This document shows positions 38,203 to 53,695 of a DNA stretch of 64,000 nt, piece by piece. The notes below the pieces were generated by a model. That model saw only the letters and a list, made by a program, of their open reading frames with translations. It did not search any database and had not been told where the DNA came from. How positions within the stretch are numbered: the first letter of the stretch is position 1; each line of letters opens with the position of its first letter. A program made the position numbers and the translations under genes. This stretch comes from a virus (lineage: Duplodnaviria; Heunggongvirae; Uroviricota; Caudoviricetes), in the IMG/VR virus record IMGVR_UViG_3300025644_000002, one strand, 5' to 3'.

Positions 38203-39276
38203 ATGAATACAGTCCTAACAGTTTTAGAAACCCAAATAAAGGAAGGGTGGGTAAAGCGAAGAAAACATCCAGAGTTTCCACTTTGGATATATAATTATAC
38301 CCATGCCACACAGTATGCTCGAAATTGGAACGATACCACTACTAGATGTAGGGGTCTTATACTAGATGAATATGGAACTGTAGTAGCCAACCCTTTTAGA
38401 AAATTTTTCAACTATACAGAATTAGAAGGACTAGGTATCGAGCTCCCAGATGACCACTACAGCATTTTTAATAAACTAGACGGATGTCTATTTATAATGG
38501 TTATGTGGAGGGGGCATTTAATTAAATCTACAAGAGGCTCTTTTGATAATGAATATATTACAGAGGCCAATGTAGTCTTAGAAGAAAAATACCCTGACCT
38601 TACTATAAGGGAGGACTTCACATACTGCTATGAGTTCTTAACACCTACTCTTAAGAAAGGGGGGATGACCTGTATCACCTACCCAGAGAGCGACCTAAGG
38701 CTATTGGCAGTACGCGATACGTTTACTGGCAGAGAGATAGGGTTGCACGCTGTTACTACTTGTATACCAAGAACAGAGCTATATGAACATGATTGCGATG
38801 TAAGTGAGTTATATAATGTACCAAATCAAGAAAACAAAGAAGGATTTGTGTTAGCATATGATAACGGGTTCAGAGTTAAAGTAAAATTTGACTGGTATGT
38901 AAGACATCACCGTATATTGCAGCTTTGCAATGATAAAACGGTATGGAAATACTTATCAGATCCAGAATTAGATATACAAGAGTTAATTGATATTGTACCA
39001 GATGAATACTATAAATGGCTTCATACCTCTATAGATAACTTTAGAGAGAATTATGTGATATTAGCAAACACTGCTTGTAAACAATACATGCACCTTATAA
39101 CTAGTTTCCCAGAATCAATTGATATGAAAAAACGAACTTCCAAAGCAGTAGCAGAAAAAGTCATAAATATTGGAAATAAACAAATAATTTCTTTAGTATT
39201 TACAATGTTACAAGGGAAAAACATAAAGCCCTTAATTTGGAAATATTTAAAACCAAAACAAACGGAGAAAAAATGA
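38203..39276 (+). CDS. rnlA: RNA ligase 1 (T4 RnlA-like)
   Basis: Motif I FNKLDGCL; EGFVLAYDNGFRVKVKFDWYVRHH ~ T4 Rnl1 [24 protein letters not shown]. Confidence 0.65.
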   Translation: MNTVLTVLETQIKEGWVKRRKHPEFPLWIYNYTHATQYARNWNDTTTRCRGLILDEYGTVVANPFRKFFNYTELEGLGIELPDDHYSIFNKLDGCLFIMVMWRGHLIKSTRGSFDNEYITEANVVLEEKYPDLTIREDFTYCYEFLTPTLKKGGMTCITYPESDLRLLAVRDTFTGREIGLHAVTTCIPRTELYEHDCDVSELYNVPNQENKEGFVLAYDNGFRVKVKFDWYVRHHRILQLCNDKTVWKYLSDPELDIQELIDIVPDEYYKWLHTSIDNFRENYVILANTACKQYMHLITSFPESIDMKKRTSKAVAEKVINIGNKQIISLVFTMLQGKNIKPLIWKYLKPKQTEKK

Positions 39277-39437
39277 AAAATCCCGGATTCATACTATTTA
39301 TAGTATTACTTGTCCTAAAGTTAGTTGGAGTCATTACATGGAGTTGGTGGTGGATAACTGCCCCGCTGTGGCTTGGCTTCGTCTTATTATTTTTAGCTGT
39401 AGGCGGTATAGCTGCAATTGCAAGTTGGCTCGATTAG
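39237..39437 (+). CDS. small membrane protein
   Basis: ORF track; two TM helices. Confidence 0.4.
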   Translation: MEIFKTKTNGEKMKNPGFILFIVLLVLKLVGVITWSWWWITAPLWLGFVLLFLAVGGIAAIASWLD

Positions 39438-39939
39438 ATATTTACTAATACTACTCACAAATATATGTTTATGCGTTGGAGCCTTACCTGAGGAATGGAA
39501 AGCTTTAACAAGCCATCAACAAGAATCAATACGGGCATCCTATGAATATGGGGTGCCCTTTGATTTAGGGTGGACATTAGCTGCTATTGAGTGGCAAGAA
39601 TCTGCAGGAGGTAAATACCTTGTAAATTTGCAAGACCCTTCCGCAGGAGCTCACCATATCAATATCAACACATATATGAGTAGACATAGAGATGAGATAG
39701 AGGACACACCCTTTAATAGGAATGTAGTGGCCCAATGGCTCATAGATAGTCACATACTTAGTTGTAGAGAAGCAATAACTGAACTAACCTATTGGAAGAA
39801 TGAGAGACATAATGGTAGCTGGTCCAAAACTGTAAGATCCTACAGGGCGGGCAATCGCTGGGAGTCTCCAGCAGGTTGGCAATATTATAAAAGTATAACA
39901 GCCAGAATAAACTTTTTAAAACAAGAATGGAAATTATAA
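39418..39939 (+). CDS. hypothetical protein (173 aa)
   Basis: ORF track. Confidence 0.45.
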   Translation: MQVGSIRYLLILLTNICLCVGALPEEWKALTSHQQESIRASYEYGVPFDLGWTLAAIEWQESAGGKYLVNLQDPSAGAHHININTYMSRHRDEIEDTPFNRNVVAQWLIDSHILSCREAITELTYWKNERHNGSWSKTVRSYRAGNRWESPAGWQYYKSITARINFLKQEWKL

Positions 39940-39940
39940 A

Positions 39941-41005
39941 ATGAGACATTTAGCAACAATCCAACTCATAGCTAATTTAGAGCCTATCTCTGGAGCAGAT
40001 GTAATTGAAAAAGCAACTGTAAAAGGCTGGCATCTAGTAGTTAAGAAGGGGGAATTTCAAATAGGTGATAAATGCGTCTACTTTGAAGTGGACTCTTTGT
40101 TGCCAGAAATAGAGCCGTTTGAATTCTTAAAGAAAAACGGTGTCAAAACAATAGATGACGGCACAAGAGGTTATCGCTTACGAACTATAAAATTGCGTAA
40201 GCAAATTAGTCAAGGGCTAGCCATGCCATTAGATACTTTCGAAGAGCTCGCCGATGGCCCCGAAGTGGGAACAGACGTAAGTGAACTTTTGAAAGTAGTA
40301 AAATATGAAGCACCCATTCCAGCATGCTTAAGTGGCCAGATTAAAGGCCACAGACCTTCCTGGATTCCTAAGACGGATGAAGAACGTGTACAGAATCTTG
40401 TAGATGAAATAAAAGAATGGGCAGGAACAGAGTGCTACATAACAGAGAAATTAGATGGATCGTCATCTACCTTTTATTATGCACCTAACTACCGAAAAGC
40501 AACACCTTTCGGAGTATGCAGTCGGAAGCTTGACCTAATAGAGAATGACAAAAATTCTTTCTGGAAAGTCGCTAGAGATATTGACGCAGAAGAGAAAATG
40601 TCTAAACTTGGTATAAATGTAATTTTCCAAGGAGAATTACTGGGGCCAGGGATTCAGAAAAATAAATACAAATTGTCTGCTACAGAAGTAAAAATGTTTA
40701 ACGCTTTTACTATACAAGATGGTGGCTTTGGAAGTATTGAGAGCTTTCTAAATCTTATATTTGGGGACTACACAACTGAGGGGGAAGTTCGCGTACGAGG
40801 GTTAGATAGAATATTTAATACTGTACCTGTCCTTAATCCAAAGATGGTGTTAAACCATACAGTAGACGAATTAGTAGAGCTTTCTAAAGGCCCAAGCCTT
40901 CTAAATCCTGATATCCCAAGAGAGGGAATTGTGATTAGAGCGAGAGATGGTAGCTTTAGTTTTAAAGTAATTAACCCTGACTTCTTAATTAAGTTTGGAG
41001 AATAA
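39941..41005 (+). CDS. rnlB: RNA ligase 2-like nucleotidyltransferase (Rnl2 family) with an extra N-terminal domain
   Basis: Motif I TEKLDGSS; FQGELLGPGIQKNKYKL ~ T4 Rnl2 FGEFAGPGIQKNVDY; motifs EGIVIR and SFKVINPDF. Confidence 0.6.
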   Translation: MRHLATIQLIANLEPISGADVIEKATVKGWHLVVKKGEFQIGDKCVYFEVDSLLPEIEPFEFLKKNGVKTIDDGTRGYRLRTIKLRKQISQGLAMPLDTFEELADGPEVGTDVSELLKVVKYEAPIPACLSGQIKGHRPSWIPKTDEERVQNLVDEIKEWAGTECYITEKLDGSSSTFYYAPNYRKATPFGVCSRKLDLIENDKNSFWKVARDIDAEEKMSKLGINVIFQGELLGPGIQKNKYKLSATEVKMFNAFTIQDGGFGSIESFLNLIFGDYTTEGEVRVRGLDRIFNTVPVLNPKMVLNHTVDELVELSKGPSLLNPDIPREGIVIRARDGSFSFKVINPDFLIKFGE

Positions 41006-41389
41006 ATGAAAAGTAACCAGCTTTTAAAAACACTGAAAGATGGCGATATAGTATTAATGGTGCTTCCTGGGTTATATGAGCCTTCAGTGTTAGAGATATG
41101 CCAACTCAAAAATACTAAATTCATTCCAAAGGGTGAGGGGCGCTCTTTCGACTGGTTAGACTTTGACTCTGACACTTTGTATGTAAATACTCGCGTACAT
41201 AGTTCACAGTTAGGTGAATCAGCTGGAAACTGTTTGTCAATAACAGAAGTGATAGCTCCCGAGCATCTTGAACAATTTGCACGAAATAAAGATATGTGGA
41301 AAGCATCTTTATACCAATACTCTGACGTTGAGTACAAACACGCCCAGAGTACGGCGGAGAGTTCTATAAAGTTATGGGATAGAGACTAA
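41006..41389 (+). CDS. hypothetical protein (127 aa)
   Basis: ORF track. Confidence 0.45.
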   Translation: MKSNQLLKTLKDGDIVLMVLPGLYEPSVLEICQLKNTKFIPKGEGRSFDWLDFDSDTLYVNTRVHSSQLGESAGNCLSITEVIAPEHLEQFARNKDMWKASLYQYSDVEYKHAQSTAESSIKLWDRD

Positions 41390-41413
41390 GCCATAAATAA
41401 AAGGAAATACAAA

Positions 41414-42328
41414 ATGAGACAAGTAATAATACTACGGGGGTTACCCGCAAGCGGTAAGACTTCGTATGCCGTAGATATGATGGATAAAATGCCAGATACA
41501 TACAAACGTGTAAATAGGGATAGTCTACGAAGCATGGTTGATGGTGGAGTATACTCTAAAGGAAATGAGAAAATAATTAAAGCAATTAGAGACTCTTTAA
41601 TCTTTAGATACTTAGATGCCGGAAGATCAGTATTCGTAGATGATACAAACTTACACAGCTCAAATGAGGAGCATATTAGAAAAATAGTGGCGGACTATAA
41701 CATTTTACGGGAAGTTAAGCACGACGTATTAGTTGTGGTTAGAGAATTCCCTACAGATGTATTTGATGCCATTGATCGAGACGCATTACGTACAGGATCG
41801 GCCCATGTAGGCTCTAAAGTTATTTATGATATGTACAGTAGGTTTCTAAAGAAAGATGAGCCTCACGACTATCCTGAGCCTCCAGGCACGGTTGAGTTGG
41901 TAGACGGCTTACCTAAGGCAATCATTTGTGACTTAGACGGCACGATGGCATTCCTTAAAGGCCGTAACCCTTATGACGCCTCTACTTGTGAGAACGATAC
42001 TTACAATGCGATTTTGGGGGAAATTCTTCACGTTATGGACAAACAGGGATACCAAATAATCTTTTTATCTGGAAGATCGGAAAAATACCTTTCAGAAACT
42101 AGACAGTTTTTGAAAGCAAACCTTCCGTTTCCTCATTGGAAGATGTTCATGAGACCATTGTTTGAGCATAATATAAGAGATTCAATTCTTAAACGCAAAC
42201 TTTATGATGAACACGTTAAAGATAAATACAACGTATTTTGCGTGTTTGATGATAGAGACCAAGTAGTTGGTCTATGGCGTAAAGACTTAGGTCTACAATG
42301 TTTCCAAGTAAACTACGGAAACTTCTAA
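41414..42328 (+). CDS. pnk: polynucleotide kinase / 3'-phosphatase (T4 Pnk-like)
   Basis: N-terminal P-loop GLPASGKTS; C-terminal HAD motif ICDLDGT. Confidence 0.65.
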   Translation: MRQVIILRGLPASGKTSYAVDMMDKMPDTYKRVNRDSLRSMVDGGVYSKGNEKIIKAIRDSLIFRYLDAGRSVFVDDTNLHSSNEEHIRKIVADYNILREVKHDVLVVVREFPTDVFDAIDRDALRTGSAHVGSKVIYDMYSRFLKKDEPHDYPEPPGTVELVDGLPKAIICDLDGTMAFLKGRNPYDASTCENDTYNAILGEILHVMDKQGYQIIFLSGRSEKYLSETRQFLKANLPFPHWKMFMRPLFEHNIRDSILKRKLYDEHVKDKYNVFCVFDDRDQVVGLWRKDLGLQCFQVNYGNF

Positions 42329-42382
42329 ATTAATAAACTGACGAAATAATAACATACAAGTTAGAAAAGGAAAAAAAACAAA

Positions 42383-43246
42383 ATGCAAAAATTGCACTTC
42401 TTAATAATTGATCCACAAAACTCTTTTATGGATCGAAACAATGATTTAGTCTTACTTCAAAAAGCCGGCATAAATTTGGCGGATATAGGATTACGACTTC
42501 CAGAACCAGAATTACCGGTACCGGGGGCTTATGAGGACTCTGAGAGGTTAGCTATGGTGCTTAACCGCTTAAGAGGTAAAATTACTGGGATCCACGTGAC
42601 GCTAGATACCCACCAATTGTTGGATATTTCGCATCCATTATTTTGGATGAATAGTGCTGGAGAACATCCGGGCCCGTTTACACTTATAAGTCTAGACGAC
42701 TTAAACGGATCAGTTTGGACACCGACTAGCCCAGATCGAATTCCAAGAGCCAGAGCTTACCTGCAAGCTCTCCAAGACAACGACAGATACCTTCTGTGTA
42801 TATGGCCACCACATTGTAAAGTGGGCACATGGGGCCACAATGTAGTAGATGTTGTAAACGCAGAACTTGAAGCCTGGGAAGAAAGCAGAAAACGCAGAAT
42901 AAACTATGTTACAAAAGGACACAACCCTTGGACAGAACATTACTCTGGCGTTATTGCTGATGTACCTGACGATGAAGATCCTACTACGCAGTTAAACGTC
43001 ACTCTTTTAAAACTTTTAAAAGACGCAGACATAATTGCCCTTTCAGGTCAGGCTCTATCACACTGTGTAGCTAATACAGTTAAAGATATTGCAGACAACT
43101 TCGGAGAAGAGAATATCAAAAAACTAGTACTGCTTGAAGACACTTCTTCAAATGTTACTGGGTTTGAGAAATTGGGTACCGACTTTGTAACGGAAATGGT
43201 TTCACGCGGTATGCAGATCTGTAAAGCTGAAGACTTTTTGAAATAA
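42383..43246 (+). CDS. isochorismatase-family hydrolase, putative nicotinamidase (PncA-like)
   Basis: LIIDPQNSF resembles the isochorismatase/nicotinamidase N-terminal motif; fits the NAD salvage set. Confidence 0.45.
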   Translation: MQKLHFLIIDPQNSFMDRNNDLVLLQKAGINLADIGLRLPEPELPVPGAYEDSERLAMVLNRLRGKITGIHVTLDTHQLLDISHPLFWMNSAGEHPGPFTLISLDDLNGSVWTPTSPDRIPRARAYLQALQDNDRYLLCIWPPHCKVGTWGHNVVDVVNAELEAWEESRKRRINYVTKGHNPWTEHYSGVIADVPDDEDPTTQLNVTLLKLLKDADIIALSGQALSHCVANTVKDIADNFGEENIKKLVLLEDTSSNVTGFEKLGTDFVTEMVSRGMQICKAEDFLK

Positions 43247-43276
43247 ACAAACACACAAAGATAAAGGAGATTATCA

Positions 43277-44041
43277 ATGGTAGATACCATGCAAAGTGTG
43301 GACTTATTAGGAGCTGGAAATTTTAAGTTTTCAGCAATAGGCTTAGATGAACTAGAAGCCTCCGAATATACCTTAGTAGGTATAGTCGTTGACATTACCG
43401 GATCAGTGGGCGGTTATGAAACTATGTTACAAAAGATGATTGAAGAAATAGTGGGGGCATGTAAAATGTCTGCACGTTCTGAAAATCTACTTGTTAGGGT
43501 AACACTGTTTAATAGTCAGACTGATATTTTGGAAATCCATGGATTTAAGCCTGTAAACGATATAGATTTAAGTGAGTATTCAGGGAAATTAGTACCTGAC
43601 GCAGCTACTAACCTGTTTGATGCCACTTATGATATGATCGGATCAATTGAACAGTATGGTAAATCCCTAGCGGACCAGGAATACAGTGTAAATGCTGCCG
43701 TGTATGTTATTACAGACGGAGATGATAATTCTTCGACTATGACAGCCACTAATGTAAAGGACAGAATACACTCCATTAAACGTGCCGAAGAATCAATTGA
43801 ATCTTTAATTTCCGTATTAATCGGGATAGGCACAGACGGCAACCATGGTTGGGGCTCTAGGGTTTCACAACTATTAAAAGAGTTTAAAGATGATGCAGAC
43901 CTCACGCAATATATTGATGCGGGCAATGCAAATGCTAAAACTCTTGCAAAATTAGGGAATTTCATTAGCCAAAGCATTAGTTCACAGAGCCATTCACTTG
44001 GCACTGGCGGACCTTCTGCTCAAGCTAGTATGAAATTCTAA
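43277..44041 (+). CDS. von Willebrand factor A domain protein (TerY-like)
   Basis: MIDAS DITGSVGG…TDGDDN. Confidence 0.55.
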   Translation: MVDTMQSVDLLGAGNFKFSAIGLDELEASEYTLVGIVVDITGSVGGYETMLQKMIEEIVGACKMSARSENLLVRVTLFNSQTDILEIHGFKPVNDIDLSEYSGKLVPDAATNLFDATYDMIGSIEQYGKSLADQEYSVNAAVYVITDGDDNSSTMTATNVKDRIHSIKRAEESIESLISVLIGIGTDGNHGWGSRVSQLLKEFKDDADLTQYIDAGNANAKTLAKLGNFISQSISSQSHSLGTGGPSAQASMKF

Positions 44042-44072
44042 CTTACAAAACGTACGTAAGAAACGGCGTAAC

Positions 44073-44140
44073 GGGGCGGTATCTCAGCAGGGTAGAGTTA
44101 GGGGATACCCTAGACATTGGTTCGAATCCAATCCGCGCTG
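44073..44140 (+). tRNA. tRNA-like gene (68 nt) whose anticodon arm is replaced by a TAGGG-GATA-CCCTA tetraloop hairpin
   Basis: Acceptor GGGGCGG/CCGCGCT, D-arm, canonical T-arm ATTGG-TTCGAAT-CCAAT, but no 7-nt anticodon loop can be folded. Confidence 0.35.
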
Positions 44141-44169
44141 TTACGTTCGTTCTTATTAAAAGGAAAACT

Positions 44170-44949
44170 ATGAACATAGATTCACATTTTATTCAAGGGG
44201 CCACTCATCGGGTTTGTGAAGATTATACACTTCATGGGGAAACAGATGAGATAGCTTATATTATTGTATGTGATGGGTGTTCAAGCGCTCCTCACACAGA
44301 TTTTGGAGCTAGATTAATAGCCCATAGTGTAGAACAAGCCATTAGAGAATTTGGAGAGCTGACTCGTCAAAAATTAGAGTGGCAACTTCAATTATGTAAA
44401 GGTTATACTGATGTCCAAGGCCTGGACCGCCGTATGCTGCTGTCAACTGTGTTGGTAGCTATCTATAATAAAGAAAAACAAAGCTTTTATATTCTTATGG
44501 CCGGAGATGGACATTGTTTCTTAGATTCAAAAGAAGGACCGCTTCATATAGATATTCAATCACCTCATAATACTCCATACTATCCTGCGTATAACATTAC
44601 TCGAAAAGATCAGGAAGAATACAAAGAGTGTTTAAAGGACAAAGGACAAACAGTTGTTCACATGAATGATGGTGACGAGGATCCTACCAATGTAGCATTA
44701 GAAACTGGAATGCCCTTTATATTTCAGCCTGATTACCCGATAGCTTCGGTAATTTTAACTACTGATGGTATAGACCAAGTAATAGATAGGGATACTGGAG
44801 AGAGAGTAGTGATTGATGATATCATCACTCATTTCCCAAGTGCCGCAGGAGCATTCGCTGTAAGAAAACTAAGGTTTCTTAAGAAAACCTGGAATAGAAA
44901 TTATATTACTAACGCAGACGATATTGGAATTGCTGGAATAATATTATGA
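44170..44949 (+). CDS. PP2C-family Ser/Thr phosphatase
   Basis: VCDGCSSAPHTDFGA ~ PP2C xDGxGGxxxG motif; sits between the vWA and kinase genes. Confidence 0.5.
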   Translation: MNIDSHFIQGATHRVCEDYTLHGETDEIAYIIVCDGCSSAPHTDFGARLIAHSVEQAIREFGELTRQKLEWQLQLCKGYTDVQGLDRRMLLSTVLVAIYNKEKQSFYILMAGDGHCFLDSKEGPLHIDIQSPHNTPYYPAYNITRKDQEEYKECLKDKGQTVVHMNDGDEDPTNVALETGMPFIFQPDYPIASVILTTDGIDQVIDRDTGERVVIDDIITHFPSAAGAFAVRKLRFLKKTWNRNYITNADDIGIAGIIL

Positions 44950-46637
44950 AGGTTTTAGTACAAGGAAAGGGGCAAGTATCATTATTAGACTCTAATTTTG
45001 TAGCTCAAGGTGGAGAGGGTAAAGTATATGTAAAAGGTGGAAGAGCTTATAAAATATTTCATGACCCAAAAACTATGATACCTGAAGAAAAAATTAGGGA
45101 ACTGTCAGTTCTTACTAAGAATACCATTATAAAACCTGAGAATTTAATTTACACTACAAAAAACACGTTAATAGGATTTATGATGCAGACTGTACCTCAG
45201 TCTATTCCATTACCAAGAATGTTTACATCTGCGTATCTTAATAGAAACAATTTAAATAACGATACCGTTACTAAATTAGTTACAAATATTAAGGATACAA
45301 TTAGTCATGTGCACGATCATGACATAATAATGGTCGATGGTAACGAATTAAATTATTTAATAGAAACTAGAAAGCATACTACTGCTTATTGTATAGATGT
45401 AAACTCATGGCAAACTCCTAATTATCCAGCTACAGTAATTATGCCCTCTATTAGAGATTGGCATGCTACAGAATTCACAGAAATTTCAGATTGGTTTTCC
45501 TTCGCTGTAATAGCTTGTCAACTGTTTATAGGAATTCACCCATATAAGGGAAAGAATTCTCACTTTAAACGAGCTACATTAGAAGAACGTATGAGAGCAA
45601 ACGTATCAATCTTTAACCCTGAAACGCGTGTTCCGGGCGCAGTAAGGGACTTTACAAATATACCTAAGAGTTATTATGATTGGTTTAAAGAAGTATTTGA
45701 AAATGGTTATAGAAGTACTCCTCCAGACATGAAAGGGCAGTACATTATACTTCCAATAACTCCTATAATAACAACACACACCGGAAGCAAATATTTTACA
45801 ATACAACAATTAAACGATTATCCTGGCGACATAATTGACTGCACTTATTTTGGTAGACAGTATATAATATATACCAAAAAAGATGTTGTCATATATAACA
45901 ATAATAGTTATATTAAAGATACCACCTCCAAGGTTTTTTCACACAGTATGTCTCAAAAGACGTTTCTTGTGAAAACTAAGGATGAATCTTTAGTATACAG
46001 ATCATTGGAAGATAGCCAATCTCCTTATCATAGTACAAATATTAAGGTTGAAAAAACTATGATATACGAAAATAGGCTATATGGCGTAAACAAGGATAGA
46101 TTTTTTGAAATAGATGTATTAGATACCGGCTCAAAGCCTACGTTTTATATTTTAAATACTTGGGAAATATTCAATAATTCTACAGAAATGTTAGATGGAG
46201 TATTATGTTCTAGTATTTTAGGTAAAACTCATTTATATTTACCATACGCACCCAACAAATGTGCAATTGTAGCAATTCCTGAACTAGATAAGTACAAGAT
46301 AATTGATGCAAAATGCCGAGACAGGGTTTGTATGATAATAGGACAATCAGGCAGCAAGTATGATAAATTTATTATCGTATTCGATGAAAATTTCAAAAAA
46401 TATGATATAAGAATCTTGAAGGACGCAGATAATATGTTGAATTTTATCTGCCTACCTAACGGATTAACTATAAGTATACATGAAGATGGCGCTTTAGAAA
46501 TGTTTCGCGCTAAGGCTTCAAGTGATGTGCAGGTCTACAAAGACTCTGCCATCAAGTCGTCGATGACACTGGCCCACGAGGGCAATATTGTTCGGTTCTA
46601 TGAAATGAATCGGATGTATCAACTAAAAATGAAATAA
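44946..46637 (+). CDS. eukaryotic-like Ser/Thr protein kinase
   Basis: Gly-rich loop AQGGEGKVYV, AYKIF (VAIK-like), DWFSFAVIACQLFIGIHPYKG (DxWSxG…P). Confidence 0.55.
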   Translation: MKVLVQGKGQVSLLDSNFVAQGGEGKVYVKGGRAYKIFHDPKTMIPEEKIRELSVLTKNTIIKPENLIYTTKNTLIGFMMQTVPQSIPLPRMFTSAYLNRNNLNNDTVTKLVTNIKDTISHVHDHDIIMVDGNELNYLIETRKHTTAYCIDVNSWQTPNYPATVIMPSIRDWHATEFTEISDWFSFAVIACQLFIGIHPYKGKNSHFKRATLEERMRANVSIFNPETRVPGAVRDFTNIPKSYYDWFKEVFENGYRSTPPDMKGQYIILPITPIITTHTGSKYFTIQQLNDYPGDIIDCTYFGRQYIIYTKKDVVIYNNNSYIKDTTSKVFSHSMSQKTFLVKTKDESLVYRSLEDSQSPYHSTNIKVEKTMIYENRLYGVNKDRFFEIDVLDTGSKPTFYILNTWEIFNNSTEMLDGVLCSSILGKTHLYLPYAPNKCAIVAIPELDKYKIIDAKCRDRVCMIIGQSGSKYDKFIIVFDENFKKYDIRILKDADNMLNFICLPNGLTISIHEDGALEMFRAKASSDVQVYKDSAIKSSMTLAHEGNIVRFYEMNRMYQLKMK

Positions 46638-46649
46638 TCAAGACAACAA

Positions 46650-47036
46650 ATGAGCAATTTATACTCAAAATTAAGTGACGATAAAAAATATGATGCAGTA
46701 GACTTCGTACTGTACTGGAACGAGCCAAACGTAATGGTTGAGCTATTAGTACCAGGTTATCAGGCTTCTAACATTAAAATTAGAATAGCTAAGGCTGGAA
46801 CTGCGTTCGGCAATTCGCCTTCAACTCATGACCGCCTGTTAGTGACAGCTGGACCGGATAAAGAGATTGGTAAAGGAACTTTCTGTAAAGGTTTCTATAA
46901 CGAATTTCCATTACAGAACGGTGAACATTTTAATTATGGAAAATTAACTAGTTCGCTAGTTCGTGGTGTTTTAACCATCGCCATACCTGTAAAAGGGAAA
47001 TTCACTCCACAGGAGTTCACAGTTAGCGAAGGCTAG
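46650..47036 (+). CDS. Hsp20 / alpha-crystallin-family small heat shock protein
   Basis: …GKLTSSLVRGVLTIAIPVK C-terminal alpha-crystallin-like beta strands. Confidence 0.45.
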   Translation: MSNLYSKLSDDKKYDAVDFVLYWNEPNVMVELLVPGYQASNIKIRIAKAGTAFGNSPSTHDRLLVTAGPDKEIGKGTFCKGFYNEFPLQNGEHFNYGKLTSSLVRGVLTIAIPVKGKFTPQEFTVSEG

Positions 47037-47100
47037 CGCTTCTATGTAGATCGTCAATAAAAGACATTATAAAGCTTAACCGCTTTATATCTTTGAAATT

Positions 47101-47140
47101 AGGCCCGGCGATCACTCGCTGGGTCTTTTTTTTAACAATT
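47101..47140 (+). terminator. Rho-independent terminator (CCCGGCGA…TCGCTGGG + T9)
   Basis: ggcccggcgatcactcgctgggtcttttttttaac. Confidence 0.5.
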
Positions 47141-47161
47141 ATTAACAATAGGGAATTATAA

Positions 47162-47839
47162 ATGAGATTATTAATGAGAGCGTTAGTAGGAAGTAGATTG
47201 CATGGGTTAGATACTCCTATAAGTGATTTCGATTATAAAACTGTATTTATTGAGACTACTTCAAATATTTTAGCTTTACCAGAGCACCAGCCCAGCGATC
47301 CAAAGGATCCAGCAGATACCTGGGAATTAGCTAGATTTCTACATTTCGCATTAAGAAGTAATCCTACAATTCTGGAAACTTTTAAAGCGACATTTACTAC
47401 AGAAAACGAGAACTGGTGTGAAGAGTTAAGAAGTCTATTTCCAGACGTTTGGAGTTCTAAATTAGTTTTCCACTCGTACAGGGGTTATGCTCAATCGCAA
47501 CGCAAAAAGCTTTTAGAAAATGATGAAGCCCTTAGTAATGGAAATGTAGAATTAGATACCATTAGAAAAAGAAAATCATCAGCGGCCTGGTTAAGAATGT
47601 TATATAATGGATACGAACTATTACAAACTGGCGATTTTACAGCCAGAATAGCTGATACAGAAGTAGGCATTCTTTGCAGAAAATATAAGGAAGGCGAATC
47701 TACTATACCAGAGGTTATAAAAACTTGTAGCTCTTGGGAAGAAAAACTAGAAGACGCGTTTAATAAGTCTACAAAAAAAGAAGCTAACTCAAAATTAGTA
47801 AATGATTTTCTATTAAAAATAAGAAAAGTTTCTTGGTAA
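47162..47839 (+). CDS. minimal nucleotidyltransferase (Pol-beta superfamily)
   Basis: GSRLHGLDTPISDFDY matches GS…SDxD. Confidence 0.45.
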   Translation: MRLLMRALVGSRLHGLDTPISDFDYKTVFIETTSNILALPEHQPSDPKDPADTWELARFLHFALRSNPTILETFKATFTTENENWCEELRSLFPDVWSSKLVFHSYRGYAQSQRKKLLENDEALSNGNVELDTIRKRKSSAAWLRMLYNGYELLQTGDFTARIADTEVGILCRKYKEGESTIPEVIKTCSSWEEKLEDAFNKSTKKEANSKLVNDFLLKIRKVSW

Positions 47840-47840
47840 T

Positions 47841-47911
47841 GCGGCTATCGTCTAATGGTAGGACACAACCTTGCCATGGTTGGAATGTCGGTTCAAATCC
47901 GTCTAGCTGCT
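47841..47911 (+). tRNA. tRNA-Gly (GCC)
   Basis: Acceptor GCGGCTA/TAGCTGC, anticodon loop TTGCCAT. Confidence 0.65.
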
Positions 47912-47932
47912 CAAATAAATAGAAAGGGCAAC

Positions 47933-48202
47933 ATGAGTTATAAACACAATCAACGACAACACGCTGTAAAAAGATTTGAAGAGCGTTATGATATTACGTT
48001 GACCAAAAAGCTAAGAAAAGAATTATTGAATAGAATTAGGAACGAGTATAACGACCAAGGAGTAAGCGTTCTAGAAAAAGTAGGACACAGGTTAGTTATG
48101 ATTATTGAGCAAAATAGCATTAGATACAAAGTAGTATATGATAAGAAAACTAATGAAATTGTCACAGCTTTACCAATTAAAGCGGCTATGGTCCAACGGT
48201 AA
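47933..48202 (+). CDS. hypothetical protein (89 aa, MSYKHNQRQHAVKRFEERYDI…)
   Basis: Track ORF 47855..48202 begins inside the tRNA; ATG at 47933. Confidence 0.45.
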   Translation: MSYKHNQRQHAVKRFEERYDITLTKKLRKELLNRIRNEYNDQGVSVLEKVGHRLVMIIEQNSIRYKVVYDKKTNEIVTALPIKAAMVQR

Positions 48203-48252
48203 GACTTCTGACTTCCACTCAGACGATGAGAGTTCGATTCTCTCTAGTTGCT
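48182..48252 (+). tRNA. tRNA-Gly (TCC)
   Basis: Acceptor GCGGCTA/TAGTTGC (two GU pairs), anticodon loop CTTCCAC; overlaps the 3' end of the preceding CDS. Confidence 0.6.
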
Positions 48253-48274
48253 CAAATAAAACCAATAAAAAACA

Positions 48275-48670
48275 ATGGCAAGTTATGAAAAGAAAACAGT
48301 TAAAATAATAATAGCACACCCGTATGATTATGATGATCTAGAAGGAAAACTTGAAGACGTACAAGAGGTACTAAGGCACATCATAGCTCTTTCTAGACAA
48401 CAGACAGGGGTAGACAACCCAGATGTGAGGTTTACCGCAGTTTGTAGCCAGTTCAACTCGTGGGACGATAGGATAGAGCTCGACGAATTAGAGGTTAGCG
48501 TGAGTCGAAAAGAGACGGATGAGGAATTTACTATTAGAACGAATGTATTAAAAGATAGAGCAAAAAAATCTGAAATAACTAGAAAGCGAAACGCGACAAG
48601 ACGGAAGAATAAGAAAGAAAAAGACGATTTTGAGCTTTATAAACAATTGGAAAAAAGATTTAAAAAATAA
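48275..48670 (+). CDS. hypothetical charged protein (131 aa)
   Basis: ORF track. Confidence 0.45.
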   Translation: MASYEKKTVKIIIAHPYDYDDLEGKLEDVQEVLRHIIALSRQQTGVDNPDVRFTAVCSQFNSWDDRIELDELEVSVSRKETDEEFTIRTNVLKDRAKKSEITRKRNATRRKNKKEKDDFELYKQLEKRFKK

Positions 48671-48679
48671 GGAAAGCTA

Positions 48680-48919
48680 ATGTCACAAAAATCAAACTCT
48701 AACAAACAGGGTAGAGACAAAATAAAATGCCAACGATACCTGGGGCGTGAAACACGGGAAATGAACATAGCAAGACGAATTGTAAAATTTGCAACAAGCA
48801 AACCAGGGCACAAAGGTAAAGAGGTTAAAATTGCGTTACATATGGCTAGTCAAAATAAACAGCCTGTAATTACAAAACTACATGTAAATCGTATTTTAAA
48901 ACAAAAGAACCTTCTATAG
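48680..48919 (+). CDS. small basic protein (79 aa)
   Basis: ORF track. Confidence 0.4.
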   Translation: MSQKSNSNKQGRDKIKCQRYLGRETREMNIARRIVKFATSKPGHKGKEVKIALHMASQNKQPVITKLHVNRILKQKNLL

Positions 48920-48956
48920 AAGATTCTAGTTTTTTGACATAGAGAGAAAAAATTAA

Positions 48957-49029
48957 TGGGGGCTCATCCAACGTAAAGGACGTCTGCAGAGGCAGGCGAA
49001 TGTGGGTTCAAATCCCACACCCCCAACCA
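48957..49029 (+). tRNA. tRNA-like gene with encoded ACCA, a canonical T-arm, and a 7-bp CGTCTGC/GCAGGCG + AGAG tetraloop hairpin in place of the anticodon arm
   Basis: TGGGGGC…ACCCCCA-A-CCA; GTGGG-TTCAAAT-CCCAC; no 5+7+5 anticodon arm can be folded. Confidence 0.35.
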
Positions 49030-49031
49030 AC

Positions 49032-49103
49032 GCCGTGGTCGTCTAATGGTAAGACGCTCTTAGTCCGCTAAGAGAAATGGAGGTTCAACTCCTTCCCTAG
49101 GCT
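49032..49103 (+). tRNA. tRNA-like gene with a non-canonical anticodon arm (CTCTT-AGTCCGCT-AAGAG, 8-nt loop, or a 6-bp stem with 6-nt loop)
   Basis: D-arm TCGTCTAATGGTAAGACG, T-arm GGAGG-TTCAACT-CCTTC, acceptor GCCGTGG/CCTAGGC with 2 mismatches. Confidence 0.35.
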
Positions 49104-49112
49104 CTAATTTAT

Positions 49113-49185
49113 AGGGTGGAAGTGTTAATGGTAACACGCCGGCCTGTCACGCCGGAGACTGCGGGTTCGATCCCCGTGCGCTCTG
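49113..49185 (+). tRNA. tRNA-Asp (GTC)
   Basis: Anticodon arm CCGGC-CTGTCAC-GCCGG; acceptor AGGGTGG/GCGCTCT (2 GU pairs, 1 mismatch). Confidence 0.6.
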
Positions 49186-49210
49186 CGAAATAAAAAGAAA
49201 GGACAACGTT

Positions 49211-49447
49211 ATGATGGGAATTATAGTACTTCTCATACCAGTGGGAATTATATTTGGGCTTGGAACTATGTTCCTAGTAATGTCGCTAATGCCAAAGTAT
49301 ACAAAGAAAGCCGGATGGGCAAAAACATATGGACTAGCTTGTTATGCCATTTGTGGAATCGTGTGGTATCTTTTAATACTTTCATGGGCCGAATCAGAAG
49401 TAGTCATGGCAGAAGAAGAAAAACAAGCAACAGAACAAACAGAATAA
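49211..49447 (+). CDS. small membrane protein (78 aa)
   Basis: ORF track; two TM helices. Confidence 0.45.
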   Translation: MMGIIVLLIPVGIIFGLGTMFLVMSLMPKYTKKAGWAKTYGLACYAICGIVWYLLILSWAESEVVMAEEEKQATEQTE

Positions 49448-49453
49448 ATTAAT

Positions 49454-49527
49454 GGGGTTGTAGCTCAGTCTGGGAGAGCAACTGCTTTGCACGCAGAGGG
49501 TCAGGGGTTCAAATCCCCTCTTCTCCA
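49454..49527 (+). tRNA. tRNA-Ala (TGC)
   Basis: Anticodon loop TTTGCAC; D-arm TAGCTCAGTCTGGGAGAGC; acceptor GGGGTTG/CTTCTCC has T5-T68 and T6-T67 mismatches. Confidence 0.55.
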
Positions 49528-49539
49528 CTCATTAATAAC

Positions 49540-49611
49540 GGCGCATTCGTCTAATGGCTAGGACACCAGGTTTTCAGTCTGGGTACAGGAGTTCGATTCT
49601 CCTATGCGCTA
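49540..49611 (+). tRNA. tRNA-Glu (TTC)
   Basis: Anticodon arm CCAGG-TTTTCAG-TCTGG; acceptor GGCGCAT/ATGCGCT. Confidence 0.65.
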
Positions 49612-49637
49612 CGAAGGTAACAAACCAGAAAAATAAA

Positions 49638-49874
49638 ATGACAAGACAGAAGAATTTATGTGGAAAGACCAGACCTCTTGACAACCCATATGAAATATGG
49701 AGAACTTTAGATCAGTCTTGGGAATGGAAAGTTTTAAAAAAATGGCAAATAGATGATAACAAAGAAGGCGCTAGATGGTTTTGCGGAGTTAAGTCTCCCT
49801 ATACTTATGGCAGCTATGAATTGGGAGATGTATTTGTACATGAAATAATAGCGGTAGCTAGGAAAGTTAGGTAG
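49638..49874 (+). CDS. hypothetical protein (78 aa)
   Basis: Track ORF 49554..49874 begins inside tRNA-Glu; ATG at 49638. Confidence 0.4.
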   Translation: MTRQKNLCGKTRPLDNPYEIWRTLDQSWEWKVLKKWQIDDNKEGARWFCGVKSPYTYGSYELGDVFVHEIIAVARKVR

Positions 49875-49886
49875 CTAAATAGGTTT

Positions 49887-49959
49887 AGTGCGGTGACCGG
49901 GGGCGAGGCTCTTGGGTTTTGGAAACCTGGGAAGGTGGGTTCGACGCCCACTCGTGCTA
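49887..49959 (+). tRNA. tRNA-Pro (TGG) with an aberrant D-arm
   Basis: 73 nt fits standard numbering; anticodon arm TGGGT-TTTGGAA-ACCTG; T-arm GTGGG-TTCGACG-CCCAC; D-stem does not pair. Confidence 0.45.
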
Positions 49960-49981
49960 CAGAAAAAAAAGAGAAATAATT

Positions 49982-50167
49982 ATGAAACAAGAAACTAAAG
50001 ATAAAATTACTACCGGGCTTTTCCAAGTAATTGACACCTTTTTAAAAGGAGTACTATTCGGAATAAATACCCGTATAGCCCCAAAAATGACATGCCATAG
50101 TTGCGGACTATTAGCAACCAAAGTTTATAAAGGACGCTGGGAGTGTGAGTGCGGGAGACGTTGGTAA
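49982..50167 (+). CDS. small zinc-ribbon protein
   Basis: CHSCG…CECG; track ORF 49919..50167 begins in tRNA-Pro. Confidence 0.4.
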   Translation: MKQETKDKITTGLFQVIDTFLKGVLFGINTRIAPKMTCHSCGLLATKVYKGRWECECGRRW

Positions 50168-50388
50168 TGAATAAATTAACTCAAGAGGAAATGAAAACCC
50201 TCTTTCAAACAACAAATAAAATGGGACTAAACAACCCCCTCTGGAGACGTGGGCAATGTATTTTTAATGCACTTTATATACTTTATCCGGAAGTAGCAGA
50301 AGAGATTAGAGCTACAGCAATGGATCCATTTTACCAGGATAGTAGAATAGCTGCCTGTATAAACCACATTACAAAGGATGAAGGATGA
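50149..50388 (+). CDS. hypothetical protein (79 aa)
   Basis: ORF track. Confidence 0.4.
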   Translation: MRETLVMNKLTQEEMKTLFQTTNKMGLNNPLWRRGQCIFNALYILYPEVAEEIRATAMDPFYQDSRIAACINHITKDEG

Positions 50389-51092
50389 AAAATAAAATAT
50401 TTGTACTGGGAGACGTACATGGTAATTACCAGGGCATGCTCCAATGTTTCGAACGTTCTAACTTCAATTATGAGGAGGATACATTAGTCTTTCTTGGCGA
50501 TATAAATGACGGGTGGCCAGATACGGCAAAGTGTTTCGAAGAACTTTTAAAGATTAAGAATTTAATATAGGTTATAGGTAATCACGACGTATGGCTACTT
50601 GGGTGGTTAGAATATGGACAAACTCCCTCATTGTGGACTAGACAAGGTGGTATGGCTACAATTGCCAGCTACGTGTCAGCCCCACTAGAATGGAGAACTA
50701 AGCACCTACATTATCTACGTAACAAAACAGTATTTTACCACATCGATGATGAGAACAAAATCTACGTACACGGAGGATTCGATCAAAAGGTCCCTATCCG
50801 GGATCAGGATCCGTATAATTTGTATTGGAATCGTCACATCATTGAAGTGGCAAAAATTTACGTAACTCAAAAGCGTGAATTTAAAGATTATAAAGAGGTA
50901 TTCGTTGGGCATACAACTACAGGAATGTTTGGAACGGATAAACCTTTAAATATTTCCAATCTATGGATGTTAGACACCGGATCAGGTTGGGAAGGAAAAC
51001 TTACTATCATGGATGTAAATACGCATGAGTACTGGCAATCAGACTTATCAGAAGATTTATATCCGAACGACTACCATGGAAGAGAACGATAA
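50385..51092 (+). CDS. ApaH / PP-lambda-type metallophosphoesterase interrupted by a single in-frame TAG (50568-50570)
   Basis: Motif 1 GDVHG and motif 2 FLGDINDGWPD lie before the TAG; motif 3 VIGNHD lies immediately after it in the same frame; VHGG and GHT follow. Track ORFs 50385..50570 and 50631..51092 are the two halves. Confidence 0.6.
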
Positions 51093-51099
51093 TTAAGTT

Positions 51100-51182
51100 G
51101 GGCAGCTGGCCGAGCGGTCAAAAGCGCCAGATTGTAGATCTGGTCCCTACGGGGTTCGGAGGTTCGAATCCTTCTCTGCCCA
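51100..51182 (+). tRNA. tRNA-Tyr (GTA), class II
   Basis: Anticodon arm CCAGA-TTGTAGA-TCTGG; long variable arm; acceptor GGGCAGC. Confidence 0.65.
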
Positions 51183-51213
51183 CACTTTTAAATAATAAAA
51201 ATCAAACTAACAA

Positions 51214-51997: not shown

Positions 51998-52135
51998 TGA
52001 GTGAGGTTATACTACCTTTAGAAGCTACCATAGATGAGGATTTACAACTTATTTTGGAAACCAAATTTGGAAATGGCAGACTAACCCTTACAGATATACT
52101 TCTATTACAAATTTGTAGAAAACTCGATAAACTTA

Positions 52136-53574: not shown

Positions 53575-53576
53575 AT

Positions 53577-53606: not shown

Positions 53607-53610
53607 TAGA

Positions 53611-53694: not shown

Positions 53695-53695
53695 C

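What the first reader, a model, noticed from the sequence alone, without database searches (positions are those of the whole stretch)
44073..49103. tRNA-like genes whose anticodon arm is replaced by a tetraloop hairpin or an 8-nt loop
Three genes have good acceptor, D and T arms (one with encoded ACCA) but no foldable 7-nt anticodon loop. Gene 48957 has a 7-bp stem CGTCTGC/GCAGGCG capped by AGAG and is 70 nt long. Gene 44073 has TAGGG-GATA-CCCTA and is 68 nt long. Gene 49032 folds best as CTCTT-AGUCCGCU-AAGAG with an 8-nt loop. The missing 3 nt match the shorter overall lengths. Such molecules could be decoys for anticodon nucleases or tRNA-binding toxins. They could also be nuclease-proof acceptor-arm mimics, a frameshift-type tRNA (8-nt loop), or pseudogenes.
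Basis: seen in the sequence. Interest (0 to 1): 0.6.

Follow-up and report, generated by a model that had tools for sequence, protein, structure and literature searches.

The report
Phage tRNA look-alikes lacking anticodon loops
A very large marine phage carries, among its normal tRNA genes and next to a tRNA-repair gene kit, three tRNA-shaped genes whose anticodon loop is closed into a plain hairpin, so they cannot read codons and probably act as tRNA mimics, although decayed tRNA genes are not excluded.

Summary
Elements at 44073-44140, 48957-49029 and 49032-49103 are tRNA-derived. None can form a 7-nt anticodon loop, because their anticodon arms have even lengths (14, 18 and 18 nt). ARAGORN, default or relaxed, gives only 2- or 4-base "anticodons". 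Rfam tRNA aligns two of them with an abnormal loop and misses 48957.

- 49032 folds as a 7-bp stem with a UCCG tetraloop, not an 8-nt loop.
- 48957 has a poor D arm.
- The "3 nt missing" arithmetic fits none of the three.
- 44073 sits at the tip of a further 17-bp stem made by its flanks.

The sequences are identical in ten independent assemblies, so they are not artefacts. No diverged relative was found, so covariation could not be tested.

The context is a tRNA-conflict island: Thg1-like, Rnl1, Rnl2, Pnkp and RlaP genes, more than 20 tRNAs and NAD salvage genes. A narrow IMG/VR scan found at least 51 other short tRNA-like genes with shrunken anticodon arms.

Best reading (0.45): non-decoding tRNA mimics, processed like tRNAs, possibly uncleavable decoys. 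Main rival (0.3): pseudogenes. Function is untested.

The parts
44073..44140 (+). tRNA-like A. Acceptor GGGGCGG/CCGCGCU with one G-G mismatch, D arm with GG in the loop, T arm AUUGG-UUCGAAU-CCAAU, discriminator G, no encoded CCA.
   Evidence: Rfam RF00005 scores 37.6 bits, E 2.6e-4 over the whole window. Default ARAGORN finds nothing; relaxed ARAGORN gives only a strained 8-nt loop 'gggg'.
44098..44113 (+). Closed anticodon arm of A: U-UAGGG GAUA CCCUA-G. This is 5 bp plus one U-G pair, capped by 4 nt. The arm is 5 nt shorter than the 17-nt canonical arm.
   Evidence: RNAfold, the cmscan alignment with 4 nt in place of 9, and my hairpin scan.
44056..44156 (+). Long stem formed by the flanks of A (44056-44072 with 44140-44156). 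It extends the acceptor helix by about 17 bp. The whole structure fills the gap between ORF 43277-44041 and the PP2C gene 44170-44949.
   Evidence: RNAfold of 44055-44158 gives -40.9 kcal/mol, z -4.72, with 0 of 200 shuffles as stable. The orthologous gap in a distant huge-phage relative is about 50 nt and holds no tRNA.
48957..49029 (+). tRNA-like B. Acceptor UGGGGGC/ACCCCCA (C7-A66 mismatch), weak D arm (UCC/GGA, loop AACGUAAA without GG), T arm GUGGG-UUCAAAU-CCCAC, encoded A-CCA at 49026-49029.
   Evidence: RNAfold cloverleaf at -32.4 kcal/mol, z -4.1. No Rfam tRNA hit; only the T arm matches tmRNA at 14 bits. Relaxed ARAGORN gives a 6-nt loop 'ga'.
48981..48998 (+). Closed anticodon arm of B: CGUCUGC AGAG GCAGGCG, 7 bp plus 4 nt, 18 nt in all.
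49032..49103 (+). tRNA-like C. It starts 2 nt after the CCA of B and ends 9 nt before tRNA-Asp. Acceptor GCCGUGG/CCUAGGC (5 of 7 pairs), D arm GUCU-AAUGGUA-AGAC, T arm GGAGG-UUCAACU-CCUUC, discriminator U. Its closest body match is the window's own tRNA-Gly(GCC).
   Evidence: Rfam tRNA 38.3 bits. ARAGORN 'tRNA-???' with anticodon 'cc'. Body comparison.
49057..49074 (+). Closed anticodon arm of C: CUCUUAG UCCG CUAAGAG, 7 bp plus a UNCG-type tetraloop, 18 nt in all.
   Evidence: RNAfold minimum-free-energy and centroid structures agree, ensemble frequency 0.58.
38203..42328 (+). Context, not shown to act on these RNAs: T4 Rnl1-like RNA ligase (38203-39276), Rnl2/PHA02142-type RNA ligase (39941-41005), polynucleotide kinase-phosphatase (41414-42328).
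   Evidence: Pfam PF09511 at 1.3e-11; PF21189 at 2.2e-35 with PF09414 at 2.8e-18; PF25109 at 3e-42 with PF13671.
47162..47839 (+). Context: RlaP nucleotidyltransferase, an RNA-ligase-associated Pol-beta family member. It ends 1 nt before tRNA-Gly(GCC).
   Evidence: Pfam PF10127 at 8.2e-22. Role as predicted in PMC7824862.
27169..27888 (+). Context: Thg1-like 3'-5' nucleotidyltransferase, a tRNA 5'-end repair enzyme.
   Evidence: Pfam PF04446 at 6.1e-23.

Best explanation
The three elements are tRNA-derived genes kept as non-decoding tRNA mimics.

Shown:
- Each keeps the acceptor/T-arm half of a tRNA. A and C also keep a normal D arm.
- In each, the anticodon arm is a closed 5-7 bp hairpin capped by 4 nt, so no anticodon can be presented.
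- They lie on the same strand as the tRNA array. B, C and tRNA-Asp are packed 2 and 9 nt apart.

Inferred:
- They are co-transcribed with the array.
- B and C are cut out by RNase P and the 3' processing enzymes like their neighbours. B already carries ACCA.
- They accumulate as stable L-shaped RNAs that the ribosome cannot use.

My preferred role is a body-double. Host enzymes that recognise the tRNA body (elbow, acceptor, anticodon stem) would bind them, for example tRNA-cutting defence nucleases or toxins that act on the CCA end. These enzymes would find no anticodon loop to cut. The mimics would thus soak up or block such enzymes while the phage's own tRNAs and its Pnkp, Rnl and RlaP repair kit keep translation going.

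Element A differs. It sits on a 17-bp stalk inside an operon gap. It may be released by a double-strand-specific cut, or it may act in cis.
For: 1. The elements are tRNA-derived and not chance.
2. A canonical loop is impossible. The arm lengths are even, and all tools give 2- or 4-base anticodons.
3. The anticodon arms are the best-paired parts: 7/7, 7/7 and 5-6/5-6 pairs. In B and C the two extra closing pairs are all Watson-Crick, which has probability about 0.004 for both if the loops were random. Neither loop is one indel away from a loop with U33 and R37. This follows directly from the sequence.
4. The stalk around A is far more stable than shuffled controls (z -4.7). Decay would not produce this.
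5. B encodes ACCA, while only 3 of about 21 normal tRNAs here encode CCA (output).
6. A high-scoring normal tRNA in the same array, Ala at 49454, also has only 5 of 7 acceptor pairs. Acceptor mismatches in this phage are therefore not a sign of decay.
7. The context is a tRNA-repair and counter-defence island.
8. The same design recurs elsewhere. A narrow IMG/VR pattern found at least 51 distinct 62-70-nt tRNA-like genes, most with 7 of 7 acceptor pairs, and many of them with anticodon arms of 3-5 bp plus 3-5 nt. ARAGORN misses 53 of 68. One such family stays in place in phages whose flanks have diverged to 76-97% identity.
Against: - There are no expression data.
- No diverged ortholog of A, B or C was found, so there is no covariation. 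All 10 population contigs are identical across the elements.
- The IMG/VR family shows 98% pairing but no compensatory change.
- B's D arm is degenerate and lacks G18/G19, so its elbow may not form.
- C has two adjacent acceptor mismatches.
- Anticodon nucleases that read the loop sequence, such as PrrC and colicins (from my own knowledge), would not be trapped by a hairpin.
- Low-scoring aberrant tRNA copies are common in large phage arrays. This window has several more.
Confidence: 0.45

Rival explanations
1. They are tRNA pseudogenes: duplicated or acquired tRNA genes that lost the anticodon loop through indels and are drifting. Their transcripts, if any, have no role.
For: - Rfam scores are low (37.6 and 38.3 bits, against 46-75 for the normal tRNAs), and B is not detected at all.
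- Stems carry mismatches: G3-G70 in A, C7-A66 and a 3-bp D stem in B, and two acceptor mismatches in C.
- The window holds further aberrant tRNA-like copies at 55036, 58252, 58607 and 58712.
- Huge phage genomes are less compact than small ones.
- No conservation could be shown.
Against: - Decay should erode the anticodon stem. Here it is perfect and lengthened by Watson-Crick pairs in two elements.
- A has a highly significant 17-bp flanking stalk.
- None of the three is a recent copy of another tRNA in the window, yet T stems are 5/5 in all.
- Normal tRNAs of this phage also carry acceptor mismatches.
- Similar short-armed tRNA-likes persist at syntenic sites in other phages.
Confidence: 0.3
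2. They are cis-acting processing or stability elements. The tRNA shape is kept only so that RNase P and RNase Z (or RNase III, for the stalk of A) cut the long array transcript at defined points or protect mRNA ends. The released RNA has no function of its own. MALAT1 mascRNA and mitochondrial tRNA punctuation work this way.
For: - A exactly fills the 128-nt gap between two ORFs of a conserved operon. Its stalk ends 14 nt before the PP2C start codon.
- Small ORFs and tRNAs alternate tightly throughout the array. RlaP ends 1 nt before tRNA-Gly.
- A processing signal does not need an anticodon.
Against: - B and C lie directly next to a genuine tRNA-Asp, so they would be redundant as cut sites.
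- A 5' leader paired to the 3' trailer, as in A, generally hinders RNase P (from my own knowledge).
- The encoded ACCA of B suggests that the released RNA's 3' end matters.
Confidence: 0.15
3. They are working tRNAs with unusual decoding: quadruplet (+1 frameshift) readers with 8-nt loops, or tRNAs whose loop is opened or remodelled by modification.
For: - B and C can be drawn with a 5-bp stem and an 8-nt loop.
- ARAGORN proposes 2- or 4-base anticodons.
- C resembles tRNA-Gly and has UCC in the loop.
- Suppressor tRNAs with 8-nt loops are known (from my own knowledge).
- The window also carries an amber-suppressor-type tRNA at 62186.
Against: - The 8-nt loops (GCAGAGGC and AGUCCGCU) have no U33 and no purine at position 37.
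- Their outer two positions on each side are Watson-Crick complementary, and the closed form is the minimum-free-energy and centroid structure.
- A has only 4 loop nucleotides.
Confidence: 0.04

Closest known systems
Ordinary phage-encoded tRNAs and the 'pseudo' or undetermined tRNAs often flagged in large phage tRNA arrays
   Same: Same origin, same strand and same spacing within an array. They share T arm, acceptor stem and, in A and C, the D arm. Two of the three pass the Rfam tRNA gathering score.
   Different: No 7-nt anticodon loop can form; the arm is a closed 5-7 bp hairpin with 4 loop nt. The phage tRNA loop variants described in PMC10264068 change loop bases and keep the loop.
mascRNA/menRNA (Rfam RF01684) and murid herpesvirus tRNA-like RNAs
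   Same: These are tRNA-shaped RNAs that do not decode. They are cut out by tRNA-processing enzymes and receive CCA. This comes from my own knowledge and from the titles and abstracts of PMC11693755 and PMC2888160. It is the nearest analogy for how the elements might work.
   Different: Those examples are eukaryotic and herpesviral, with no sequence relation. The only Rfam mascRNA hit in the window (15.6 bits) falls on the true tRNA-fMet.
YrlA, the bacterial Y RNA that partners Ro/Rsr in RNA repair
   Same: It is a tRNA mimic tied to RNA-repair gene neighbourhoods, also found in jumbo phages. It combines a long terminal stem with a tRNA-like module, as element A does.
   Different: The topology is the opposite. 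In YrlA the acceptor stem is the closed loop, and the open ends leave through the anticodon stem (10.1101/312249). Here the anticodon arm is closed and the acceptor is open. There is no Rfam hit, and no Ro-sized ORF among the window ORFs that I scanned.
tmRNA tRNA-like domain
   Same: It has an acceptor stem plus T arm with CCA, no anticodon, and a reduced D arm, as element B does.
   Different: There is no mRNA-like tag region and no pseudoknots. ARAGORN finds no tmRNA. Rfam tmRNA matches only the 17-nt T arm at 14 bits. There is no G3-U70 pair.
Phage T4 RNAC and RNAD
   Same: These are small stable RNAs encoded within a phage tRNA gene region, with unknown role (PMC3014915).
   Different: I know of no sequence or structural relation. 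They were not compared here, because the sequences were not at hand.
Frameshift-suppressor tRNAs with 8-nt anticodon loops
   Same: The arm is one nucleotide longer than normal, as in B and C.
   Different: Those keep U33 and an open loop with a 4-base anticodon (from my own knowledge). B and C lack U33 and close into tetraloops.

Membership tests
Canonical tRNA (Rfam RF00005) | Score at or above the family gathering threshold of 29 bits | tested here: inconclusive
   A scores 37.6 bits and C scores 38.3 bits, so both pass. B gives no hit even at E<=10 in a 5.4-kb search.
Canonical tRNA (Rfam RF00005) | 5-bp anticodon stem with a 7-nt loop carrying U33, a 3-base anticodon and a purine at position 37 | tested here: not met
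   The arms are 14, 18 and 18 nt, so only even loops are possible. cmscan shows 4 and 10 nt in place of 9. ARAGORN gives 'cc', 'ga' and 'gggg'.
Canonical tRNA (Rfam RF00005) | 7-bp acceptor stem, and a T arm of 5 bp with a UUCRANY loop | tested here: met
   T arms are 5/5 with loops UUCGAAU, UUCAAAU and UUCAACU. Acceptor stems have 6/7, 6/7 and 5/7 pairs.
Canonical tRNA (Rfam RF00005) | D arm with G18 and G19 to form the elbow with the T loop | tested here: inconclusive
   A (AGCAGGGUA) and C (AAUGGUA) have GG. B (AACGUAAA, 3-bp stem) does not.
Functional non-decoding tRNA mimic (mascRNA or viral tRNA-like type) | Transcribed, cut by RNase P and RNase Z, CCA-tailed, stable and not used in translation | not testable with these tools
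   This needs RNA-seq or biochemistry. The only indirect support is same-strand placement in the array and the encoded ACCA of B.
YrlA / Y RNA | Closed acceptor-like stem, with the ends leaving through the anticodon stem into a Ro-binding helix, and a neighbouring rsr (TROVE) gene | tested here: not met
   The topology is reversed. There is no Rfam Y RNA or YrlA hit. No TROVE domain was found in the 29 ORFs scanned against Pfam; not all ORFs were scanned.
tmRNA | tRNA-like domain plus a tag-encoding reading frame and pseudoknots, with G3-U70 | tested here: not met
   ARAGORN finds no tmRNA. Rfam tmRNA reaches 14 bits on the T arm only. Position 3-70 is G-C in B.
Quadruplet / frameshift-suppressor tRNA | Open 8-nt loop with U33 and a 4-base anticodon followed by a purine | tested here: not met
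   The loops GCAGAGGC and AGUCCGCU have no U33. Positions 32-38 and 33-37 are Watson-Crick pairs, and the minimum-free-energy fold is closed.
tRNA pseudogene | No purifying selection, with substitutions hitting stems and loops alike among relatives | not testable with these tools
   No diverged relatives were found. Population contigs are identical across the elements.

The most novel reading that the evidence does not exclude
Phages widely encode a so far unnamed class of anticodon-less tRNA body-doubles. These are tRNA genes whose anticodon loop has been closed or shrunk. They are processed like tRNAs and act as uncleavable competitive inhibitors or sponges of tRNA-directed immune nucleases and toxins. 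They would complement phage tRNA supply and tRNA repair. The three elements here and the short tRNA-likes found in IMG/VR would be members.
Probability: 0.2. Interest if true: 0.8.

Novelty: new variant of a known kind. Interest (0 to 1): 0.5.

Why it matters
Phage tRNA genes are now seen as weapons against host enzymes that cut tRNAs. The known tactics are spare tRNAs, altered anticodon loops and tRNA repair. An RNA that keeps the tRNA body but has no loop to cut would be a fourth tactic, an RNA decoy.

The idea is easy to test. Express the 70-nt RNAs alongside PrrC, PARIS, Schlafen, retron or CapRel-type systems and look for protection.

There is also an annotation point. Standard tRNA finders skip most such genes. 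ARAGORN missed 53 of 68 in my IMG/VR sample. If the class is real, it is currently invisible in phage annotation.

If the elements are only decayed genes, the finding still has some use. It shows how much tRNA-derived debris a huge phage array carries.

Tried and rejected
Searches for relatives
- Megablast of 43900-49300 against 50,697 phage records found nothing.
- Sensitive blastn of the elements and of 58240-59300 hit only generic T arms and the true tRNA-fMet.
- The kinase-like neighbour has no close relative in IMG/VR. Its best relative among 5.8 billion proteins is 41% identical.
- Distant relatives were fetched (L001-L005, L137-L140). Their syntenic regions hold no tRNA-likes.
- Exact 22-31-nt patterns of each element's 3' half, of A's centre and of tRNA-Asp found nothing in IMG/VR or in GTDB genomes.
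- The single JGI metagenome hit is an unrelated tRNA-Lys(UUU) that shares B's 3' half.
- Population contigs are identical across the elements, so they give no covariation.

Ideas rejected
- YrlA: rejected on topology.
- tmRNA: rejected.
- Isotype of origin: only C looks weakly Gly-like. My earlier guesses of Gln or Lys for B and Arg for A are not supported.
- My first count of "closed arm" elements was too generous. Canonical loops often close in silico to 7 bp plus a triloop through positions 33-37 and 32-38. I therefore withdrew 58784 (loop UUGUUAG, Asn-like), 58252 (loop CUCAUAA) and 58529 (Rfam tRNA 45.3 bits, loop CAGGCAG) as anticodon-less.
- TAG recoding: no sign in this window.
- PHROGs and Pfam gave nothing for the small ORFs next to the elements.
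- Covariation in the IMG/VR family A1: 98% of cells paired but no compensatory change.

Full report
**What the window is**

The window looks like part of a very large phage genome.
- It carries 22 tRNA genes by ARAGORN and one more by Rfam, all on the + strand.
- It has no near match among 50,697 phage records.
- Its 563-aa kinase-like protein matches only three "uncultured phage" genomes of 462-595 kb, at 29-34% identity.
- Ten independently assembled contigs are 99.8-100% identical to window 41391-57821. They come from JGI, ENA and Logan. The JGI record names read like 150-200 m water-column samples.

**The observation**

The three elements are real and tRNA-derived.
- A (44073-44140): Rfam tRNA 37.6 bits. 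The D loop contains GG, the T arm is perfect (AUUGG-UUCGAAU-CCAAU), and the acceptor stem has 6 of 7 pairs. Only GAUA stands where the model expects the last stem pair plus seven loop bases.
- C (49032-49103): Rfam tRNA 38.3 bits. ARAGORN calls it "tRNA-???" with anticodon "cc".
- B (48957-49029): no tRNA tool finds it at default settings, and it gives no Rfam tRNA hit at E<=10.
  - It folds into a cloverleaf at -32.4 kcal/mol, z -4.1.
  - Its T arm is perfect (GUGGG-UUCAAAU-CCCAC), its acceptor is G-C rich with 6 of 7 pairs, and it ends in an encoded ACCA.

In 100 dinucleotide shuffles of the window, a T arm plus acceptor stem turns up 1.08 times per strand. The real + strand has 17 and the real - strand has 1. 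With a central hairpin of at least 5 bp and a tetraloop, the chance figure is 0.11 against 4 observed.

**No anticodon loop**

The anticodon arms are:
- A: UAGGG-GAUA-CCCUA (14 nt).
- B: CGUCUGC-AGAG-GCAGGCG (18 nt).
- C: CUCUUAG-UCCG-CUAAGAG (18 nt).

Because these lengths are even, no symmetric 7-nt loop can be drawn. Relaxed ARAGORN still returns only 6-nt or 8-nt loops.

- C's "8-nt loop" closes through A-U and G-C pairs into a tetraloop in both the minimum-free-energy and centroid folds.
- B's D arm is poor: 3 bp and no GG.
- C's acceptor stem has two adjacent mismatches.
- The "3 nt missing" arithmetic does not hold. A lacks 5 nt, B's arm is 1 nt longer than canonical, and C has normal length.

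One caveat came up along the way. Normal anticodon loops often close in silico to 7 bp plus a triloop, through positions 33-37 and 32-38. In-silico closure alone proves little. The parity of the arm length and the missing U33 and R37 are the firmer arguments.

**A new feature of element A**

The flanks of A pair with each other (44056-44072 with 44140-44156). This extends the acceptor helix by about 17 bp (-40.9 kcal/mol, z -4.7, 0 of 200 shuffles as stable). The structure fills the gap between ORF 43277-44041 and the PP2C gene. In a distant huge-phage relative with the same gene order, that gap is about 50 nt and holds no tRNA.

**Context**

The elements sit in a block devoted to tRNA supply and repair:
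- Thg1-like, 27169-27888.
- T4 Rnl1-like ligase, 38203-39276.
- Rnl2/PHA02142-type ligase, 39941-41005.
- Polynucleotide kinase-phosphatase, 41414-42328.
- RlaP nucleotidyltransferase, 47162-47839.

NAD salvage genes (NAPRTase, NAD synthase, Nudix) lie downstream. A comparative study of jumbo phages reads this enzyme set as repair of tRNAs cut by host nucleases (PMC7824862).

**Selection or decay?**

Direct evidence is missing. No diverged ortholog turned up in INPHARED phages, IMG/VR, JGI metagenomes or GTDB genomes. The population contigs carry no variant inside the elements.

Indirect points favour maintained structure:
- The anticodon arms are the best-paired parts of each element. In B and C they are lengthened by four Watson-Crick pairs in total, with probability about 0.004 by chance.
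- Neither 8-nt reading is one indel away from a loop with U33 and R37.
- A's stalk is highly non-random.
- None of the three is a recent copy of another tRNA in the window, yet all T stems are intact.
- A high-scoring normal tRNA of this phage, Ala at 49454, also has only 5 of 7 acceptor pairs.
- B encodes ACCA, whereas only His, Ser and fMet among the normal tRNAs encode CCA.

Points that favour decay:
- Rfam scores are low.
- B's D arm is degenerate.
- Several other odd tRNA-like copies lie in the same window.

**Do similar things exist elsewhere?**

I scanned IMG/VR for GGTAGAG, then 18-23 nt, then GGTTCGAATCC. That spacing is at least 3 nt too short for a canonical arm.
- After filtering there were 68 elements (51 distinct) of 62-70 nt, most with 7 of 7 acceptor pairs and normal D and T arms.
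- Many of them have anticodon arms shrunk to 3-5 bp plus 3-5 loop bases. Examples are CUAG-GAAA-CUAG, CUCC-AGAA-GGAG (on a 357-kb contig) and CCGGA-UAU-UCCGG.
- ARAGORN missed 53 of the 68, and most are solitary rather than in arrays.
- Some keep a plausible 7-nt loop on a shortened stem and may be working tRNAs, so the set is mixed.
- One family of eight distinct sequences sits at the same place in phage contigs whose flanks are 76-97% identical. All members keep the short arm. In that family, 98% of pair cells are paired, with five wobble-compatible one-sided changes, three disruptions and no compensatory change. This shows persistence, not proof of selection.

I found no paper describing such a class.

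**Interpretation**

- Best explanation (0.45): non-decoding tRNA mimics made and processed with the array. A decoy or sponge role against tRNA-directed host enzymes is the leading guess.
  - It fits the island.
  - It fits reports that defence nucleases cut in the anticodon arm, after which the loop is trimmed away (PMC13056530).
  - The decoy step is inference only. It could work only for enzymes that read the tRNA body rather than the loop sequence.
- Pseudogenes: 0.3.
- Cis-acting processing or stability elements: 0.15. This is most plausible for A.
- Quadruplet or otherwise unusual decoders: 0.04.

**Comparison with known systems**

- The elements fail the defining anticodon-loop feature of tRNA.
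- Their topology is the reverse of YrlA.
- They lack everything but a T arm of tmRNA.
- In working principle they are nearest to mascRNA-type and herpesviral tRNA-like RNAs.
- In setting they are nearest to T4's unexplained RNAC and RNAD.

I rate this a new variant of a known kind. It is of moderate interest now and of high interest if the decoy role or the wider class is confirmed.

Noticed in passing
window 18968-19405 (+), with tRNA at 19045-19116: A GOLLD-like large non-coding RNA (Rfam RF02032, 124.8 bits, E 1.8e-32, below the gathering score of 150). It has an embedded tRNA (58.7 bits; my reading of the anticodon is UAU) that ARAGORN missed.
   Followed up: no
window 58861-58919 (+): A 59-nt stretch matches bacterial 23S rRNA model positions 1089-1152 (34.5 bits, E 8e-7). 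It includes GGCUUAGAAGCAGCCAUC, which I recall as the L11/thiostrepton-binding GTPase-associated centre. This may be an rRNA-fragment mimic inside a phage. The hit did not reappear in a smaller search.
   Followed up: partly
window 58021-59307 (+): A 1.3-kb stretch with no ORF of at least 100 aa is packed with structured RNAs.
- 58252-58322: fMet-like tRNA with an aberrant D arm.
- 58393-58470: true tRNA-fMet.
- 58529-58604: tRNA with a C1-A72 initiator-type acceptor, loop CAGGCAG (A33) and encoded ACCA. It scores 45.3 bits only in a small search.
- 58607-58705: 99-nt tRNA-like with 7/7 acceptor pairs.
- 58712-58777: 8-bp acceptor-like stem plus ACCA, with hairpin GCUGAU-GCAU-AUCAGC (z -3.0).
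- 58784-58856: cloverleaf with loop UUGUUAG (Asn-like), a non-canonical T loop and ACCA (z -2.8).
- 59231-59271: a long hairpin.
   Followed up: partly
window 55036-55119 (+): An 84-nt element right after tRNA-Met has a good T arm (GCAGG-UUCGAGU-CCUGU) and 5 of 7 acceptor pairs, but no recognisable D or anticodon arm. Its fold is no better than shuffles (z -0.05).
   Followed up: partly
window 53611-53695 and 53697-53784 (+): tRNA-Thr(UGU) and tRNA-His(GUG) are 85 and 88 nt long and carry long hairpin variable arms. In bacteria this is normally seen only in Leu, Ser and Tyr tRNAs.
   Followed up: no
window 62186-62262 (+): A tRNA with anticodon CUA, an amber-suppressor type that ARAGORN labels 'Pyl'. 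TAG still ends 11 of 79 long frames, and treating TAG as sense adds little, so there is no sign of recoding in this window.
   Followed up: yes
window 52429-57634 (+): An NAD salvage and synthesis block sits inside the tRNA array: NAPRTase, NAD synthase and Nudix. The identical contigs also annotate NADAR, nucleoside deoxyribosyltransferase-like and cytidylyltransferase-like genes. This looks like an NAD-replenishing counter-defence module.
   Followed up: no
window 44170-46637 (+); L003/L004 9138-11689: A PP2C phosphatase plus a 563-aa divergent kinase-like protein form a pair. The kinase-like protein has 1,181 relatives at E<=0.001. They are about 560 aa long and at most 41% identical. Several lie on contigs of 100-310 kb with phage-like genes.
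   Followed up: partly
IMG/VR loci L011-L126, for example L080 1665-1731, L031 10710-10777, L069 1188-1249, L126 7943-8009: There are many 62-70-nt tRNA-like genes with normal acceptor, D and T arms but shrunken anticodon arms. Most are solitary, and ARAGORN does not call most of them. One conserved family (AAAUAGG...CCGGA-UAU-UCCGG...) lies upstream of a phrog_2152 gene of unknown function.
   Followed up: partly
L009 9396-9457 (Pectobacterium phage CBB, record 309726-309787): The deposited annotation lists a 62-nt 'tRNA-Asp, anticodon ACG'. The isotype and anticodon do not agree. This is another abnormally short tRNA call in a jumbo-phage array.
   Followed up: no
L008 11870-11942 and 12443-12515 (uncultured huge phage LR745206.1): Two near-identical tRNAs have anticodon loops UCUGGAG and UCAGGAG, with C33 instead of U33. 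They are further examples of non-canonical loops in huge-phage tRNAs.
   Followed up: no
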